The notes beneath the pieces are model-generated. The model had not been told where the DNA came from and made no database searches. It worked only from the letters and a program-made list of their open reading frames with translations. Positions 4,701-58,115 of a stretch of 64,000 nucleotides of DNA are shown here, in pieces. Origin of the DNA: the human T2T-CHM13v2.0 reference genome, Homo sapiens; assembly GCF_009914755.1 (NCBI RefSeq), contig NC_060934.1; one strand, given 5' to 3'. Within the stretch, counting starts at the first letter, position 1, and each line of letters starts with the position of its first letter. A program made the translations under genes and the position numbers.

Positions 4701-6241
<1,541 letters not shown>

Positions 6242-52246: not shown

Positions 52247-52639
<393 letters not shown>

Positions 52640-53761
52640 TAACACACACTCTGATGGCTACACCCTGATGGCCATGCCCCCAAACTGTCACGCCTTCCAC
52701 ACAGAGCCTTGGATGGCCACACCTTCTGATGATCATGCCCCAGAATGGCCACGCCCCCTGCTGGCCACACCCTCTGATGGCCACACCCCTGGTGGCCATG
52801 CCTGTCAATGGCAGGCACTCAGGCCAGACTGCCTCCCCTACCAGCCTAGTGTCCTGGGCGTGTTGCGGAGGCCTCTGGGTGGCAGTTCCCCTCTTTTGGA
52901 CCCCTGGGTACTGTCTTTTCCGTGACACTGTTTCCTGATGGCAAGGATGTTCTCTGGGGACAGCAGCCCAAGGCCTGCCTTTGCCTCAGGGCACTGTGGG
53001 ACCTCAGGCCTGTTGGGTCAGTTCTGCTCTAATGGGAGGTGAGAAGCCCTGCTGACTAGATGGCCTGGATGTGTAGGACACGGCCCAGCTTCTCCGTGAG
53101 CCAGGTTGGCTGGGAGGCAGCTTTATGGATGTATTCCTTGTTAAGAACACCACTAGTGAAGGCTTAGTTGAAATTCACATAAACAAGTGTGCTGTGTGCC
53201 AGCTGGCTGTGGGCATCGGTGGGTTAATGTTGGCCATGCTCTGCTGGCTCCTCATTAGCCTCCTGGGCCTCTTTGGTCTCCAGGGGCTCAGGGTGAGGAC
53301 AGTGACCTGCAACCCCTTTGCTGCCTCAGAGGGGCTGTGGTTGGAGCTCGGATGCTTGGGGGACCCCAGGCGCCAGCATCCCCCTCACCGGGAGGCTCTC
53401 TCTGTGCCCAGCTCTCCTGCGACCCTCTGGCGGCCCCTTACTCCGCTGCGGTGGCATCTGGGGGACCGGGAATCCATTCCTACCATTTCCCTGGCTGTCA
53501 GGCGTTGTGCTTTCTGAGTTGAAGTTGCAGGAATTGGAAGGATATTGTTCCCACCACGGGGAGTGTGGCATGGCGAAGACCCTCCACTCTCCTGCCAGAG
53601 CAGTGCAGCAAAGGCTTGTGTCCTCGTCAGGAGCCACGGGCCATGGCCATGCCAGCTGCTCTGCGACGATCTGTTACCAAGGAAATGAATGAAAATCTTG
53701 AAGGATTTGGGTTTCCCGAGTACTGTGACTATTGAAGATGTTCTTCCTTTTAATCTTGCAG

Positions 53762-53827
53762 AGAATTAAAGAGTTAGAAGAAAGAATAGAAGCTCAGAAG
53801 AGACAAATAAAGGAACTGGAGGAAAAG
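53762..53827 (+). CDS. JAKMIP3: JAKMIP3 coding exon (RIKELEERIEAQKRQIKELEEK), 66 nt
   Basis: aatcttgcag acceptor, AAG|gtaaaa donor. Confidence 0.94.
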
Positions 53828-55133
53828 GTAAAACAAATGCAGTTTTGGGGGTTGCTTGTTAAGATCAAGGGAGAGGAACCCGGTGTCACCCCGACCTGAG
53901 TCACTCAGCTCCAGGCCGTTGGGGCAGCAGACTTCGCTCCCAACAGCAGCGGGAAGCGGCCGCCTGGAGGCCTGAAGGCTGGGCGGAGCTGAGCTGGGCG
54001 GAGCTGAGCTGGGTGGTAGCTGCAAGGGCTCTGGACCCGGAGACAGGAGCCCCAGGGTCTAGGAATGCCCCTGCCAGGGCCCAGCCATGCGACCTCAGAG
54101 GAGCCACTCCTCTTGTGGCCTCAGTTTCCCCATCTGGAGCCAACGGCCTCGGGTTCCTCCCATCACTGAAGCCTGGGCTGTGTGGAAGCCTTTGATCCGT
54201 GCAGGTTCACCTTGCACTGGTCTAAGAATCCAGTTCCCGGATCAGAAGCACCCGTTGACGTGCAGTTAGGCAGAGGCCACACACCAGGGCTGGGGAGGGC
54301 TGTCTGGCTCTTTCTCGGGGTCCCAGCTCCGTGAGGTGTGGGGTCAGGGCTGCTCTGTCCATGCACATAACAGACTTGGTGCTCCCCAAGTCATGATGGG
54401 GGGAGCACAGCAGAGTCCCTCCCGGGGTTGCCTGCAGGCGTTCAGGGCAGCGCTTGTTCTCCCACGTGGGGCTGGTTCAGTCATGTCTGGGGGTGACAGT
54501 GTTCACTCCATTGTGATTGGTCCTGGGGGCCCGGCTCCCGACCCCCAGCCCAGAGTGAGACTTTTTGCTAAATCTGCTATGCGGTGGAGCTCACTGAAGG
54601 GACGGGCTCCCTCCGAGGGCTGAATGAAATGGTCAGTGGCCCCACCTTCTGCCTCATCCTTCCGGAGAGAACAGGAGGCTGGCATTGGGATGCCCCTGTG
54701 GTTGGCATGTGCTGGTCCCGGCCTGAGGAGGAGCCCACAGATGCTCTGCAATTGCCAGGAGAGACCGGGTCCCTCTGGACAGCAGTCGCCTTAGACGGGC
54801 CGTGTGTCATCCCACATCCACCCTAGCCCTGCCCCGCCCCTCGTAGGCGGTGACACCCATGCCCTTCCACTGGGCACTCACTGCCGCCTGTGAGAATCAT
54901 CATCCTGAGGAACGAGTTACTCAAGGCACAGCCTTTGAGGCCCCGGTGGACTCCAGGCCATGTGGGGAAGCACCCACTAGCACGCAGGGGCACCCGGCCT
55001 TGCCGGGAGGGGACACAGTGTTCTGGGGGCTGGAGCCTCAGAGGGCAAAGCCTCTCCCCAAACCAAATGTCTGTTTCATTTTGCATCTTAACCTAAGGAT
55101 ATTTGTTTGTATTAAATACTAGAAAAATGTGAG

Positions 55134-55429
55134 GGCTAGGCGTGGTGGCTCATGCCTGTAATTCCAGTACTTTAGGAGGCCTAGATGAGAGGATCGCTTG
55201 AGCCCAGGATTTCAAGACCAGCCTGGGCAACATAGTGAGACCCTGTCTCTAGAAAAAAATTTTAAAACATAGCTGGACATGGTGGCACGTGCCTATAATC
55301 TCCGTTACTCAGGGGGCCGAGGTGGGAGGATCACCTGAGCCTAGGAGGTTGAGGCTGCAGTGAGCCATGATTACGTCACTGCACTCCAGACTGGGTGACC
55401 GACTGAGATCCTGTCTCCAAAGAAAAAAA
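55134..55429 (+). mobile_element. Alu (AluJ-like), sense
   Basis: ggctaggcgtggtggctcatgcctgtaa...gagcccagg...cactgcactccagactggg. Confidence 0.9.
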
Positions 55430-56074
55430 TAGATCAGGTGTTATTTCTTAAATCTAGCTAAATAGCTCTTCATTCCCAAGCGATGCCCCACTGCCCGATT
55501 TTCTCTCGTGTCCAGATGGGCCTGGCTCCCGACCCCCAGCCCAGAGTGAGACTGTGTGCGCTTTGTCTGCTCAGGGTGCTGGTTGTACTTTGCTGCTTAC
55601 GGTGGGACTGAGACCACAATATTCTCACAGGCCTGCTTTTGTTTGCTGGGCACTTGGAATGTCTTTCAATACAACGTTCACCATTATTATTACCCCATTG
55701 GTGCTCTTGCCAAAAATTCCTGCAGCAGGTCTCAGCGATGGGTTTCACTTCAGGGAGGAGGAGACCCAGTCCCCGGGAGGCTGGCCTTGTGGTGCTGGGG
55801 ACACGCTGGGTGTGGGGCCCCCGACCAGCGCCCACCACCCGCATCTGCCCGGTGCAGAGTCCCCAGTGCGTTCCTAGGGGTGGCGGCACCACCCCTCAGA
55901 CCCGGGGATTTGGGCAGCATCCCTCCCTCGGCACAGTCCTTAATAGCGTCCTCTCCTCCCTGCCAACAGCTCTGTCTTCAGTCTGTAATCGCGTGTATTT
56001 CTTGCCAGAAGCACTACAAACTCTTTTTTCTCTTTCTTTCCTTCCGTTTCTCCATCCTCCCCTTTCCGTTTCAG

Positions 56075-56125
56075 TTTCTATTTTTGTTCTTATTTTTCTC
56101 CTTAGCTTTCATTCTCTGGTCATAG
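56075..56125 (+). CDS. JAKMIP3: JAKMIP3 last coding segment, hydrophobic tail FLFLFLFFSLAFILWS-stop; exon continues as UTR to the donor after 56147
   Basis: cctttccgtttcag acceptor; TAG at 56123-56125; GTG|gtgagt donor at 56148; hydrophobic C-terminus characteristic of JAKMIP/NECC proteins. Confidence 0.92.
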   Translation, partial: FLFLFLFFSLAFILWS

Positions 56126-56894
56126 TCCGTCTTGGCACCCTGACGTGGTGAGTATTTCGTTGGCAGGGCCCAGCAGGGGTCCCGCTCTGCTTCCCGGAAG
56201 ACTCCTCTGCCCCTGCCCTGCCAGGGAGTTGCCCACCTGCCATTCGATCAACTGGAAGGCGATGACCCAGCATCCCCAAAAGGGTTGTTAGAAAGCCACC
56301 CGCGTCCTTCAACACTGGAAGTCCCTCCCTGGGGGTCAGGACCCGGAGTCTTCCACTGTAGAGGCCGCAAGGTGCTCACCTTTCCTGAACGGGAAGGAGA
56401 GCAGGGTTCCCACCACCACCCCAGTGTAGCAGAAACATGCAGGACCCTCTCTAGGGGGTCTTTCTGCTTTGGTGGCACTCGGCAGCAGGCCCTGGGGGCA
56501 GACACGGTGGTTCTGTGATTCGTCCTTGTTCTTTTCTGGGTGGTGCTGAGCACAAGCTCGGGCGGTGCTGGAGATTCAGCCAGGAGGGCTTGGTCTCCCT
56601 GCCAGGCCGGGCAGCTTAGGCCAGGATAGCTGGAGTCTACAGGTCATGGCTGCTGCTACCATGGCACCCGCCAGCATAGATGGCTGCCTCCTTCCAAACT
56701 GGAGGAGGGGCAAGTAGGACGTCACATCATTGTTCGCCTCGGTCCTCGAGTCTGCACCCTTCAGCAGGTCCCGAGAGGAGCTTCCCCTGGGAGCAGGGCT
56801 CTCCCTCTCCATGAAGCCCCTCATCCCTCACCCCTTACCCCTCACTCCAGCCAAGTGGAGTCTCCCTGACATCCTCTCCACGCAGCCCTTCGGT

Positions 56895-56998
56895 CCTCAC
56901 CCCTCACCCCTCGGCCCTCACCCCTCGGCCCTCGCCCCTCGCCCCTCACCTCTCGGCCCTCGCCCCTCGCCCCTCGCCCCTCGGCCCTCGCCCCTCAC
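56895..56998. repeat. 7-bp (CCCTCGC-like)n repeat flanked by a duplicated ccctcactccagccaag motif
   Basis: cccctcg/ccctcac units; flanking motif at about 56841 and 56992. Confidence 0.75.
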
Positions 56999-57051
56999 TC
57001 CAGCCAAGCGGAGCCTCGCTGACTCTGCACTCTACGTTTCATTTCTTCCAG

Positions 57052-58115
57052 CCCCACATTGAATCGGACCCTTTTCCTCCAGTGGGACCAGAAAGCAGGG
57101 ACAAAATGGGACGTCGCGTCTCCATCCTGAAGACCCAGGGAGATTTGGTCTCTGCACGCCCGTCCCGTGGAGGAAGAGTGAGAAGGGGCAGTGTGTGGGG
57201 CGTGGAGCTGCCGTCCACGTGGGATGTGCCAGAACTAGAACTGGCTCTGCCGACTTCTCGGGGGCTTCTCCGGGACAGGCCTGGCCTTGGCTGCTGGACC
57301 CTGGGTCCCTTCTCCCGGACGGCAGACCCCATCCCATTTCCAGGGATGTGTAGCATTCCCTGCCAAGCAGGGGTGAGAACTGCTTCTGTGCAGAAGCACC
57401 AGCCGCGGGTCCCCTCCTCTCTCTTGGTTCTCACAGTAGCTGCCACTGGTGTCTGGAGGAAGATTTTCAGAAACAACAGAGGCTTGGCCTGATGACAAGA
57501 TGAAAGCTGGACGGTGACCTTCATTCAGGGGAACCTGGAGGCTCCCTGGGATGGTCCTGGGAGGGCTCCCCGACGCCTCAGGGGCCCCTCCGATGCTGCA
57601 ATATGTTGCTGGGGTCCTGAGCACCCGCTGGCCAACAGACCCCACATCCACCCTCGTTCATCATCATCTCTGTGGGGACAGACAAGAGCCGTGGCCGCCG
57701 CGGGCCGCGTGGTGCCATCAACCCTCTGCCTCCCTACTCAACCTGAGACAGGAAGGCCAAGATCCCGCCCAAGCCGCCAGCTGGGAGCACCGCGGGACTG
57801 AGCCAAGGAAGGCGTGGGGAGCGTGGTGACAGGAGGTGGGACGAGGGGGCGGAGCTGGCTGGAACACGGATGCCAGAGGCTGCCTCCATAGTGAATCTCC
57901 AGAAGTCACAGAGGCCCTGGGCACCCAGAGCCACCCAGCCTGGAAGCCCCTGCACGGGCCAGCCCTGCAGGCACCGAAGCCTCACCCCAAGCCTTTGCAC
58001 ACAAGGAGCAGCCCAGGTGGGGATGGCGGGCGCAAGAAGGGAACCGCGGGGACGGCCTTTCCCCTCCCGCCCTGTGTGGGGACGCTGCACGAGCCGTGGA
58101 CCAAGAGGCTGACAG
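57052..58115 (+). other. JAKMIP3: Probable JAKMIP3 3' UTR exon (3' end uncertain); coding for 146 aa in alternative splice forms
   Basis: Strong acceptor tttcatttcttccag at 57051; candidate donor CAG|gtaagg at 58116; I did not spot an AATAAA downstream in the window. Confidence 0.55.

What the first reader, a model, noticed from the sequence alone, without database searches (positions are those of the whole stretch)
56075..57492. Membrane-tail codons double as a polypyrimidine tract; an internal acceptor opens a ~160-aa alternative C-terminus
Seen: the Phe/Leu codons tttctatttttgttcttatttttctccttag end in an AG at 56104-56105, making a very strong second acceptor 31 nt into the exon. Splicing there reads LSFSGHSPSWHPDV (56106-56147, 42 nt, bypassing the TAG) and joins 57052 in frame: PHIESDPFPPVGPESRDKMGRR...RNNRGLA-stop (57492), 146 more codons. 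Skipping the exon altogether (53827 to 57052) enters the same frame. A third AG, the stop codon itself at 56125, would give SVLAP-stop. From memory, NECC/JAKMIP isoforms with and without the hydrophobic tail have been reported. Inference: this is the membrane-anchored versus soluble switch, and the nominal 3' UTR is conditionally coding.
Basis: partly seen in the sequence, partly recalled or inferred. Interest (0 to 1): 0.72.

Follow-up and report, generated by a model that had tools for sequence, protein, structure and literature searches.

The report
Known JAKMIP3 tail-swapping splice site
An internal splice site in the next-to-last JAKMIP3 exon replaces the protein's greasy membrane tail with a long tail read from the 3' UTR; this switch is already annotated and published, and the long human tail looks like unselected read-through.

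Summary
AG 56104-5 lies 31 nt into exon 56075-56147. Splicing to 56106 bypasses the TAG, and 14 + 146 codons run to TGA 57490-2. Skipping the exon enters the same frame.

None of this is new. The hub's table lists exon 56106-56147. A protein database holds a human JAKMIP3 'isoform a' of 990 aa plus X1-X6 models with exactly these tails. A 2013 PLoS One paper (PMC3765260) amplified rat Necc2 transcripts with and without the hydrophobic region, and tied that region to integral membrane association.

- The 160-aa tail is complete only in apes and diverges there at the neutral rate.
- Macaque, rodents, camel, whales and bats read the homologous DNA in shifted frames or stop early, giving tails of 58-347 aa.
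- The tail matches no Pfam family and gives no confident fold.
- JAKMIP1 has the same AG at the same offset, and there it gives a conserved 24-aa tail. JAKMIP2 lacks the AG.

So the functional output is most likely loss of the hydrophobic tail, not gain of a 160-aa domain. The finding is already known and of low interest.

The parts
53762..53827 (+). Upstream coding exon. It ends on a complete codon (...ELEEK) with donor aag|GTAAAA.
56024..56074 (+). Long CU-rich pyrimidine tract ahead of the standard acceptor (20 of 22 Y at -25..-4). No strict yUnAy branch-point motif was found between 55990 and 56074.
56075..56125 (+). Standard C-terminal coding part: hydrophobic tail FLFLFLFFSLAFILWS plus TAG. 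The tail is identical in 15 of 16 residues to the JAKMIP1 and JAKMIP2 tails. The stop lies 22 nt before the last exon junction.
56075..56105 (+). 31 nt of Phe/Leu/Ser codons that also form the pyrimidine tract and AG (56104-5) of the internal acceptor (20 of 22 Y).
   Evidence: The AG is kept in rat: the reverse complement of a published primer matches 56100-56121 with 1 mismatch. It is also kept in human JAKMIP1.
56106..56147 (+). Alternative short form of the exon (listed in the hub's table). It is read as LSFSGHSPSWHPDV, and 56106-56125 is coding in two frames.
   Evidence: 46 of 61 database proteins carry this segment followed by the full tail
56124..56125 (+). Third AG (inside the TAG). 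Acceptor 56126 would give SVLAP-stop. Its tract is weaker (16 of 22 Y) and no evidence of use was found.
56148..56153 (+). Donor GTGAGT of the penultimate exon.
57052..57096 (+). First 15 codons of the last exon in the alternative frame (PHIESDPFPPVGPES). This is the only part of that exon read in this frame, without indels, in all 14 mammalian tails aligned.
57097..57492 (+). Distal alternative reading (131 codons plus TGA 57490-2). It is open at full length only in apes. Elsewhere it is frame-shifted or stopped early.
57083..57083 (+). Further annotated acceptor 31 nt into the last exon. With 56106 it gives a 29-aa tail, and with exon skipping a 15-aa tail.
   Evidence: hub table
57374..57376 (+). 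TGA in human frame 2. It follows directly on the last aligned residue of three of the five rodent-type tails examined (chinchilla, squirrel, unnamed P0077), so their tails appear to end here.

Best explanation
This is the known alternative splicing switch at the C-terminus of JAKMIP3 (NECC2). The penultimate exon encodes a 16-residue Phe/Leu-rich hydrophobic tail followed by a stop. Phe, Leu and Ser codons are pyrimidine-rich, and the Leu-Ala codon pair (TTA GCT) creates an AG. As a result the tail's own codons form a second 3' splice site 31 nt inside the exon. Using it, or skipping the exon altogether, removes the hydrophobic tail and shifts translation into the frame that stays open through the first 441 nt of the last exon. 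The stop then lies in the last exon, so nonsense-mediated decay is not expected. The functional output is most likely presence or absence of the hydrophobic region, giving an integral-membrane or a soluble/peripheral protein. The ~160-aa human replacement tail is mostly unselected read-through of the 3' UTR. Only about the first 30 residues are shared across mammals. Shown here: the sequence anatomy, the annotated isoforms, and the lack of frame conservation. Shown in print for rat: both transcripts exist, and the hydrophobic region confers integral membrane behaviour. Inferred: that the same holds in human tissues, and that the distal tail has no function.
For: Anatomy.

Annotation: the hub's table lists exon 56106-56147. 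One search returned 61 proteins with E <= 0.001 among 1141 candidates. All 61 carry PF16034, 58 are named JAKMIP3 by a source and 3 have no name. In one search, 46 of them have the LSFSGHS... tail of 159-161 aa, 14 have the exon-skip tail of 146-147 aa, and 1 (macaque) has a 75-aa tail. They include human 'isoform a' (990 aa).

Literature: PMC3765260 reports rat isoforms of 844 aa with the hydrophobic region and 915 aa with an alternative C-terminus, found by RT-PCR and nested PCR. The form with the region migrates with caveolin-1/TrkA, while the endogenous protein and the construct lacking the region do not.

Neutral tail: amino-acid differences from human, in the 160-aa tail versus the preceding 600 aa, are chimp 5 vs 1, gorilla 6 vs 2, orangutan 9-11 vs 5, Nomascus 15 vs 5, and T2T versus GRCh38 human 2 vs 0. 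Unconstrained simulation of the same DNA expects 4.1, 5.3, 11.3 and 14.6 differences at d = 0.0123, 0.016, 0.034 and 0.045 (these d values are recalled genome averages).

Frame not kept: tails are macaque 75, Peromyscus 58, Fukomys 65, camel and cetaceans 66, chinchilla 121, squirrel 122, and Rhinolophus 146 and 347 aa. In tblastn against human DNA, macaque moves to frame 2 near 57190. Rodents move to frame 3 and then frame 2, and three of the five align up to the codon before the human frame-2 TGA at 57374-6.

No fold or family: no Pfam family at E <= 1. AlphaFold2 gave mean pLDDT 35.6 and no secondary structure (single sequence, so weak evidence). The tail found no match at the JAKMIP1 or JAKMIP2 loci in the genome.

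Paralogue: JAKMIP1 keeps the AG at the same 31-nt offset. Of the 120 JAKMIP1-type proteins listed, 29 use it and 26 of those 29 have a 24-aa tail.
Against: No human RNA-seq junction counts, Ribo-seq or peptide data could be examined, so use and abundance in human tissues rest on annotation names alone.

Most database proteins are automatic gene models. Models pick whichever frame is open, so tail lengths in other species show what the DNA allows, not what is made.

The neutrality test uses proteins only and recalled genome-wide divergences. No orthologous DNA was available for dN/dS or PhyloCSF.

The frame has stayed open, with an almost unchanged end point, in all eight ape species seen. In the simulation a new stop arose in 16-47% of runs over those divergences, so this is mildly more open than chance alone predicts.

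The first ~30 residues are conserved without indels across 14 mammalian tails, which could reflect a real short motif.

The single-sequence fold is weak evidence for disorder.
Confidence: 0.85

Rival explanations
1. The 160-aa tail is a functional, ape-specific coding extension: a newly born C-terminal segment that gives the soluble isoform a new property.
For: The frame is open at full length, with nearly the same end, in human, chimp, bonobo, gorilla, two orangutans and two gibbons. Simulated neutral change introduced a stop in 16-47% of runs at those divergences. An open run of 146 or more codons arose in only 2.7-4% of shuffles. A moderately hydrophobic stretch (SSLLVLTVAATGVW) lies near the end of the tail.
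Against: Amino-acid divergence among apes equals the neutral expectation and is roughly 7-19 times the per-residue rate of the preceding 600 aa. Two human assemblies already differ at 2 of 160 residues. No Pfam match was found and the model has pLDDT 35.6. Macaque loses the frame after 48 codons of the last exon.
Confidence: 0.07
2. The switch works mainly by skipping the whole exon (53827 to 57052) rather than through the internal acceptor. The 56106 site would then be a minor by-product.
For: Both routes give the same frame. 14 of 61 database proteins are exon-skip forms. These include human X6 and three unnamed records from transcript-sized contigs of 2223-4625 nt. An unnamed representative also joins ...ELEEK directly to PHVESD (P0003). 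The reverse complement of the published primer specific to rat Necc2-alpha does not match contiguous human DNA at up to 3 mismatches. Its first 9 nt match the end of exon 53762-53827 with 1 mismatch (read). The rest would encode Pro-Ser-Ala, which are the first residues of the last exon in Peromyscus.
Against: [quoted passage not shown] 46 of 61 primate proteins and all 73 non-primate proteins among the 120 listed use the internal acceptor. The AG and its 20-of-22 pyrimidine tract are kept in rat and in JAKMIP1.
Confidence: 0.25
3. Use of 56106 is splicing noise at a chance AG, with no biological role.
For: A Leu-Ala codon pair makes an AG by chance with two of the six Leu codons. Any Phe/Leu-rich coding stretch is pyrimidine-rich. 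JAKMIP2 does without the AG, using Leu CTT.
Against: The AG sits at the same offset in rat JAKMIP3 and in human JAKMIP1. In JAKMIP1 the resulting tail is a conserved 24 aa in 26 of 29 proteins from several mammalian orders. Rat transcripts were amplified and the hydrophobic region changes fractionation behaviour. Endogenous NECC2 in PC12 cells and 3T3-L1 adipocytes is mostly soluble.
Confidence: 0.05

Closest known systems
Rat Necc2 and Necc2-alpha isoforms (Diaz-Ruiz et al. 2013, PLoS One 8:e73668, PMC3765260; passages and section 17 read)
   Same: Same gene and same exon. Alternative splicing removes the C-terminal hydrophobic region and gives a longer alternative C-terminus. The AG is conserved: the reverse complement of the published primer matches 56100-56121 with 1 mismatch. 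The paper links the hydrophobic region to integral membrane association.
   Different: The rat long isoform is 915 aa, against 844 aa for the form with the hydrophobic region. That implies an alternative tail of roughly 87 aa, versus 160 aa in human. The isoform-specific primer looks like an exon-skip junction (and my reading). The truncated construct used for localisation is not the natural alternative tail.
Human JAKMIP3 'isoform a' (990 aa) and models X1-X6, as named by NCBI in the protein database
   Different: Nothing differs. The GRCh38-derived versions differ from the T2T window at 2 of 160 tail residues.
JAKMIP1 alternative C-terminus (ELEEK|HSFCGLDD...DRKR.YGI., 24 aa)
   Same: The hydrophobic tail exon is homologous (FLFLFLFFSLAFILWP). 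The internal AG lies at the same 31-nt offset, and there is a further downstream exon. Of 120 listed proteins, 29 use the AG and 50 end in the hydrophobic tail.
   Different: The alternative tail is short. It is 24 aa in 26 of 29 proteins, with a stop 9 codons into the next exon, and it is conserved in length and sequence across orders. The JAKMIP3 tail is 58-347 aa and not frame-conserved. The two alternative tails share nothing beyond the xSFxG start, which comes from the overlap with the AFILW codons.
JAKMIP2 (NECC1) tail exon
   Same: It has the same hydrophobic tail (FLFLFLFFSLAFILWP-stop) and the same layout, with the stop in a penultimate exon followed by a GTAAGA donor.
   Different: The Leu codon is CTT, so there is no AG at the 31-nt position. 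The internal-acceptor switch is not available in the human gene.

Membership tests
JAKMIP family protein | JAKMIP_CC3 domain (PF16034) above Pfam's gathering score | tested here: met
   P0024 (990-aa isoform): PF16034, E 1.2e-90, 303 bits against a cut-off of 30.2
Alternative 3' splice site event | An AG preceded by a pyrimidine tract, inside an exon, downstream of the standard acceptor | tested here: met
   AG at 56104-5; 20 of 22 Y at -25..-4, equal to the standard site, against a median of 16 for the 20 acceptors of the selected transcript
Alternative 3' splice site event | Transcripts that use it | tested here: inconclusive
   The hub's table lists exon 56106-56147. 46 of 61 proteins carry the resulting full-length tail. 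Rat RT-PCR is published. Human junction reads were not available to any tool here.
C-terminal hydrophobic anchor (tail-anchor-like region) | A single hydrophobic stretch at the extreme C-terminus that confers integral membrane association | not testable with these tools
   A 16-residue F/L-rich tail is encoded at 56075-56122 and is conserved 15 of 16 in both paralogues. Membrane behaviour is shown only in the rat paper. The stretch is short for a membrane span.
Conserved protein-coding sequence (distal alternative tail, 57097-57489) | Reading frame kept in orthologues | tested here: not met
   Macaque, five rodent-type tails, camel, cetaceans and one bat leave the human frame or stop early
Conserved protein-coding sequence (distal alternative tail, 57097-57489) | Amino-acid change slower than neutral | tested here: not met
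   Observed 5, 6, 9-11 and 15 differences per 160 aa; neutral simulation gives 4.1, 5.3, 11.3 and 14.6. Protein-level test only, with recalled divergences.
Conserved protein-coding sequence (distal alternative tail, 57097-57489) | Known domain or confident fold | tested here: not met
   0 Pfam families at E <= 1; mean pLDDT 35.6 and pTM 0.16 from a single sequence

The most novel reading that the evidence does not exclude
The acceptor embedded in the Phe/Leu codons may be an ancient on/off switch for the hydrophobic tail, inherited by both JAKMIP1 and JAKMIP3 from before these paralogues split. JAKMIP2 would then have lost it through a synonymous Leu codon change. On this reading the tail's codon choice is constrained at once by the peptide and by splice-site function. 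In JAKMIP3, the ~30 residues conserved at the start of the alternative tail (LSFxGHS...PDVPxxExDPxPPxGPES) would form a short proline-rich motif specific to the soluble isoform. The ape-only distal 130 residues would be neutral cargo.
Probability: 0.3. Interest if true: 0.35.

Novelty: already known. Interest (0 to 1): 0.15.

Why it matters
The switch decides whether JAKMIP3/NECC2 carries its hydrophobic C-terminal region. In rat cells that region determines integral versus peripheral association with caveolae membranes. This is already in the annotation and the literature, so the finding itself adds nothing new. They should not be treated as a conserved domain in variant interpretation or isoform-function studies. 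The observation that JAKMIP1 has the same internal site but a conserved 24-aa tail is a modest lead on how old the switch is.

Tried and rejected
- A search of the genome with the tail exon DNA found only the locus itself. The paralogous exons were found instead by fetching DNA downstream of the paralogues' upstream exon.
- A six-frame search of the genome with the 146-aa tail gave the locus itself plus three weak matches (E 0.13-0.94) on other chromosomes. None lies at the JAKMIP1 or JAKMIP2 loci.
- Three of the eight representative-library hits (P0005, P0007, P0008) are long repeat proteins that match short low-complexity stretches. I set them aside by eye.
- The Rbfox1 preprint that mentions Jakmip3 concerns exon 4, not this exon.
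- Paper searches for JAKMIP1/2/3 C-terminal isoforms found nothing beyond PMC3765260 in the listings read. I recall a 2007 Gene paper on Jakmip1 transcripts and the 2007 FEBS Letters paper on NECC1/2, but neither was seen.
- No strict yUnAy branch-point motif was found upstream of 56075. The only one (A at 56092) lies 13 nt from AG 56105, which is probably too close, so I make no branch-point claim.
- The upstream-600-aa comparisons for Hylobates X4 and macaque X8 are distorted by isoform differences, so I did not use them.
Full report
**Observation.** The window was read at 53700-53900, 55950-56260 and 56950-57560. The in-window CDS upstream of exon 56075-56147 is 2355 nt and open only in frame 0, so that exon starts on a full codon. 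It reads FLFLFLFFSLAFILWS and then TAG at 56123-56125. The first 31 nt end in AG at 56104-5. Starting at 56106 the reading is LSFSGHSPSWHPDV (42 nt). This joins 57052 in frame and continues for 146 codons to TGA 57490-57492, 160 aa in all. Skipping the exon gives the same 146 aa, and an acceptor at 56126 gives SVLAP-stop.

**Splice-site strength.** The pyrimidine content at -25..-4 is 20 of 22 for both 56075 and 56106. The 20 acceptors of the selected transcript have a median of 16. Acceptor 56126 scores 16 of 22 and acceptor 57083 scores 15 of 22. No MaxEnt-type score was available.

**Is the open frame more than chance?** Only mildly. A frame fixed at base 1 stayed open for 146 or more codons in 2.7% and 4% of 3000 dinucleotide shuffles. 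The same exon has open runs of 121, 103, 101, 96 and 95 codons in its other frames. The G+C fraction is 0.60. The open frame also continues 79 codons upstream into the intron, 225 aa stop to stop, across a CCTCGCC tandem repeat.

**Already annotated.**
- The hub's table lists exon 56106-56147 among other transcripts.
- A search of 5.8 billion proteins with the 146-aa last-exon reading (longer proteins only) returned 61 proteins with E <= 0.001 among 1141 candidates. All 61 carry PF16034. 58 are named JAKMIP3 by a source and 3 are unnamed.
- Sorted by what follows ...ELEEK, 46 have LSFSGHS... tails of 159-161 aa, 14 have the exon-skip tail of 146-147 aa, and 1 (macaque) has LSFSGHS... with only 75 aa.
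- They include human 'isoform a' (990 aa), human X1-X5 (through 56106) and X6 (exon skip), from two human assemblies.
- That a name without 'X' marks a curated record is my recollection of RefSeq practice.

**Already published.**
- This gives an 844-aa isoform with the hydrophobic region (HR) and a 915-aa isoform with an alternative C-terminus. Both were amplified from PC12 cells by RT-PCR and nested PCR.
[quoted passage not shown] Endogenous NECC2 and a construct lacking the HR did not.
- A later paper found NECC2 soluble in 3T3-L1 adipocytes and attributes the membrane fraction in PC12 cells to an alternative variant (PMC6201366, passages).
- The reverse complement of the HR-specific rat primer matches the window at 56100-56121 with one mismatch and keeps the AG.
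- The reverse complement of the Necc2-alpha-specific primer matches no contiguous human DNA at up to 3 mismatches. Its first nine bases equal the end of exon 53762-53827 with one mismatch (read). The rest would encode Pro-Ser-Ala, which are the first residues of the last exon in Peromyscus.
- So the rat product may be the exon-skipped form. I could not see the figure or the rat sequence, so this stays open. Either way the frame is the same.

**Is the 160-aa tail a selected protein segment?** The evidence says no.

*Distribution.* The full-length tail occurs only in hominoids: human, chimp, bonobo, gorilla, two orangutans and two gibbons. Macaque covers 33% of the query.

*Rate of change.* Amino-acid differences from the T2T human, in the 160-aa tail versus the preceding 600 aa, set against the differences expected from random substitution in the same DNA (the divergence values d are recalled genome averages):

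| Comparison | Tail (160 aa) | Preceding 600 aa | Neutral expectation (d) |
|---|---|---|---|
| Chimp | 5 | 1 | 4.1 (0.0123) |
| Gorilla | 6 | 2 | 5.3 (0.016) |
| Orangutans | 9 and 11 | 5 | 11.3 (0.034) |
| Nomascus | 15 | 5 | 14.6 (0.045) |
| GRCh38 human | 2 | 0 | not simulated |

The two rows distorted by isoform differences (Hylobates X4, macaque X8) were not used.

*Frame in other mammals.* A second search, with residues 801-870 of the 990-aa isoform, gave 2075 hits of which 120 were listed. It brought in 73 non-primate proteins, all starting LSF[SC]GHS. Their tail lengths are:

| Species | Tail (aa) |
|---|---|
| Peromyscus | 58 |
| Fukomys | 65 |
| Camel and all cetaceans | 66 |
| Chinchilla | 121 |
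| Squirrel and one unnamed record | 122 |
| Rhinolophus sinicus | 146 |
| Rhinolophus ferrumequinum | 347 |

An alignment of 14 tails is free of indels and well conserved only over about the first 30 residues.

tblastn of these tails against human 57052-58115 shows the following:
- Macaque shifts to human frame 2 near 57190. Its alignment ends at 57235, just before the human frame-2 TAG at 57236-8.
- Rodents leave frame 1 after 57096, run in frame 3 and then in frame 2. Chinchilla, squirrel and the unnamed P0077 align up to 57373, just before the human frame-2 TGA at 57374-6. Fukomys and Peromyscus end earlier.
- Camel and whale alignments stop at 57189-57195, just before the human codon 57196-8, which is Trp.
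- One bat later continues in frame 3.

Unnamed representatives from the 1.84-billion-protein library tell the same story. Of 8 hits, 5 are related. One of these is a genomic ORF that includes intron sequence, and three depart from the human frame part-way.

*Fold and family.* The tail has no Pfam family at E <= 1. It gives no confident fold: mean pLDDT 35.6 from a single sequence, which is weak evidence. It has no match at the paralogous loci.

**What counts against this reading.**
- The frame has stayed open in all eight ape species, although the simulation put a new stop in 16-47% of runs.
- The first ~30 residues are conserved.
- All non-human tails come mostly from gene models, which choose open frames.
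- No orthologous DNA, RNA-seq, Ribo-seq or peptide data could be examined.

**Paralogues.**
- The human genome is held, and the exon homologous to 52301-52504 located JAKMIP1 (contig C4, minus strand) and JAKMIP2 (C5, minus strand).
- Both have a tail exon encoding FLFLFLFFSLAFILWP-stop.
- JAKMIP1 keeps an AG at exactly the 31-nt offset (...CTAG|C). JAKMIP2 has Leu CTT there and no AG.
- Of 120 listed JAKMIP1-type proteins (1311 hits), 50 end in the hydrophobic tail, 29 read ELEEK|HSFCGL..., and 41 are other or partial. 26 of those 29 tails are 24 aa, from several mammalian orders.
- Human JAKMIP1 DNA supports this. The exon would end 45 nt after the internal acceptor at a GTTGGT donor. The next exon, preceded by ...cttacag, reads DRKRIYGIN-stop.
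- So the internal-acceptor switch is shared by JAKMIP1 and JAKMIP3. In JAKMIP1 it gives a short conserved tail, and in JAKMIP3 a long drifting one.

**Mechanism.** The hydrophobic tail's Phe/Leu/Ser codons are necessarily pyrimidine-rich, and TTA-GCT supplies the AG. The two acceptors lie behind one long CU-rich tract and presumably compete. I found no convincing separate branch point for 56106, so this step is inferred. The standard stop lies 22 nt before the last junction. The alternative stop lies in the last exon. By the usual 50-55-nt rule (established knowledge) neither should trigger nonsense-mediated decay in transcripts that end with exon 57052-58115. The outcome is presence or absence of the hydrophobic region.

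**Verdict.** The added points are the neutral, ape-only distal tail and the shared JAKMIP1 acceptor.

Noticed in passing
window 56872-56996: A CCTCGCC tandem repeat (14.6 copies, also scored at periods 21 and 28) lies in the last intron just upstream of exon 57052. The alternative frame stays open through it (225 aa stop to stop). One database 'protein' (P0001, 217 aa) is simply this genomic ORF, intron included.
   Followed up: partly
window 57083: The further annotated acceptor lies 31 nt into the last exon, the same offset as 56106 has in its own exon. It converts the long tail into short ones: 29 aa with 56106 and 15 aa with exon skipping.
   Followed up: partly
L012 (JAKMIP2, reverse strand, exon start at rc position 6088) and L010 (JAKMIP1, rc position 1588): The 16-residue hydrophobic tail is identical in 15 of 16 residues across the three human paralogues, although synonymous codon use differs widely. 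JAKMIP2 alone lacks the internal AG.
   Followed up: yes
window 23148/23154/23157 and 52343/52346: Closely spaced tandem acceptors (cag|cag type) from the hub's list of alternative exons. They would account for the 2-aa differences between the 988- and 990-aa isoforms.
   Followed up: no
window 56106-56147 + 57052-57489: The T2T window and the GRCh38-derived proteins differ at 2 of 160 residues in the alternative tail, while the preceding 600 residues are identical.
   Followed up: partly
window 55990-56074: No strict yUnAy branch-point motif lies upstream of the standard acceptor. A CU-rich tract of about 50 nt precedes it, the kind of sequence that (from recall) binds polypyrimidine-tract-binding proteins.
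   Followed up: no
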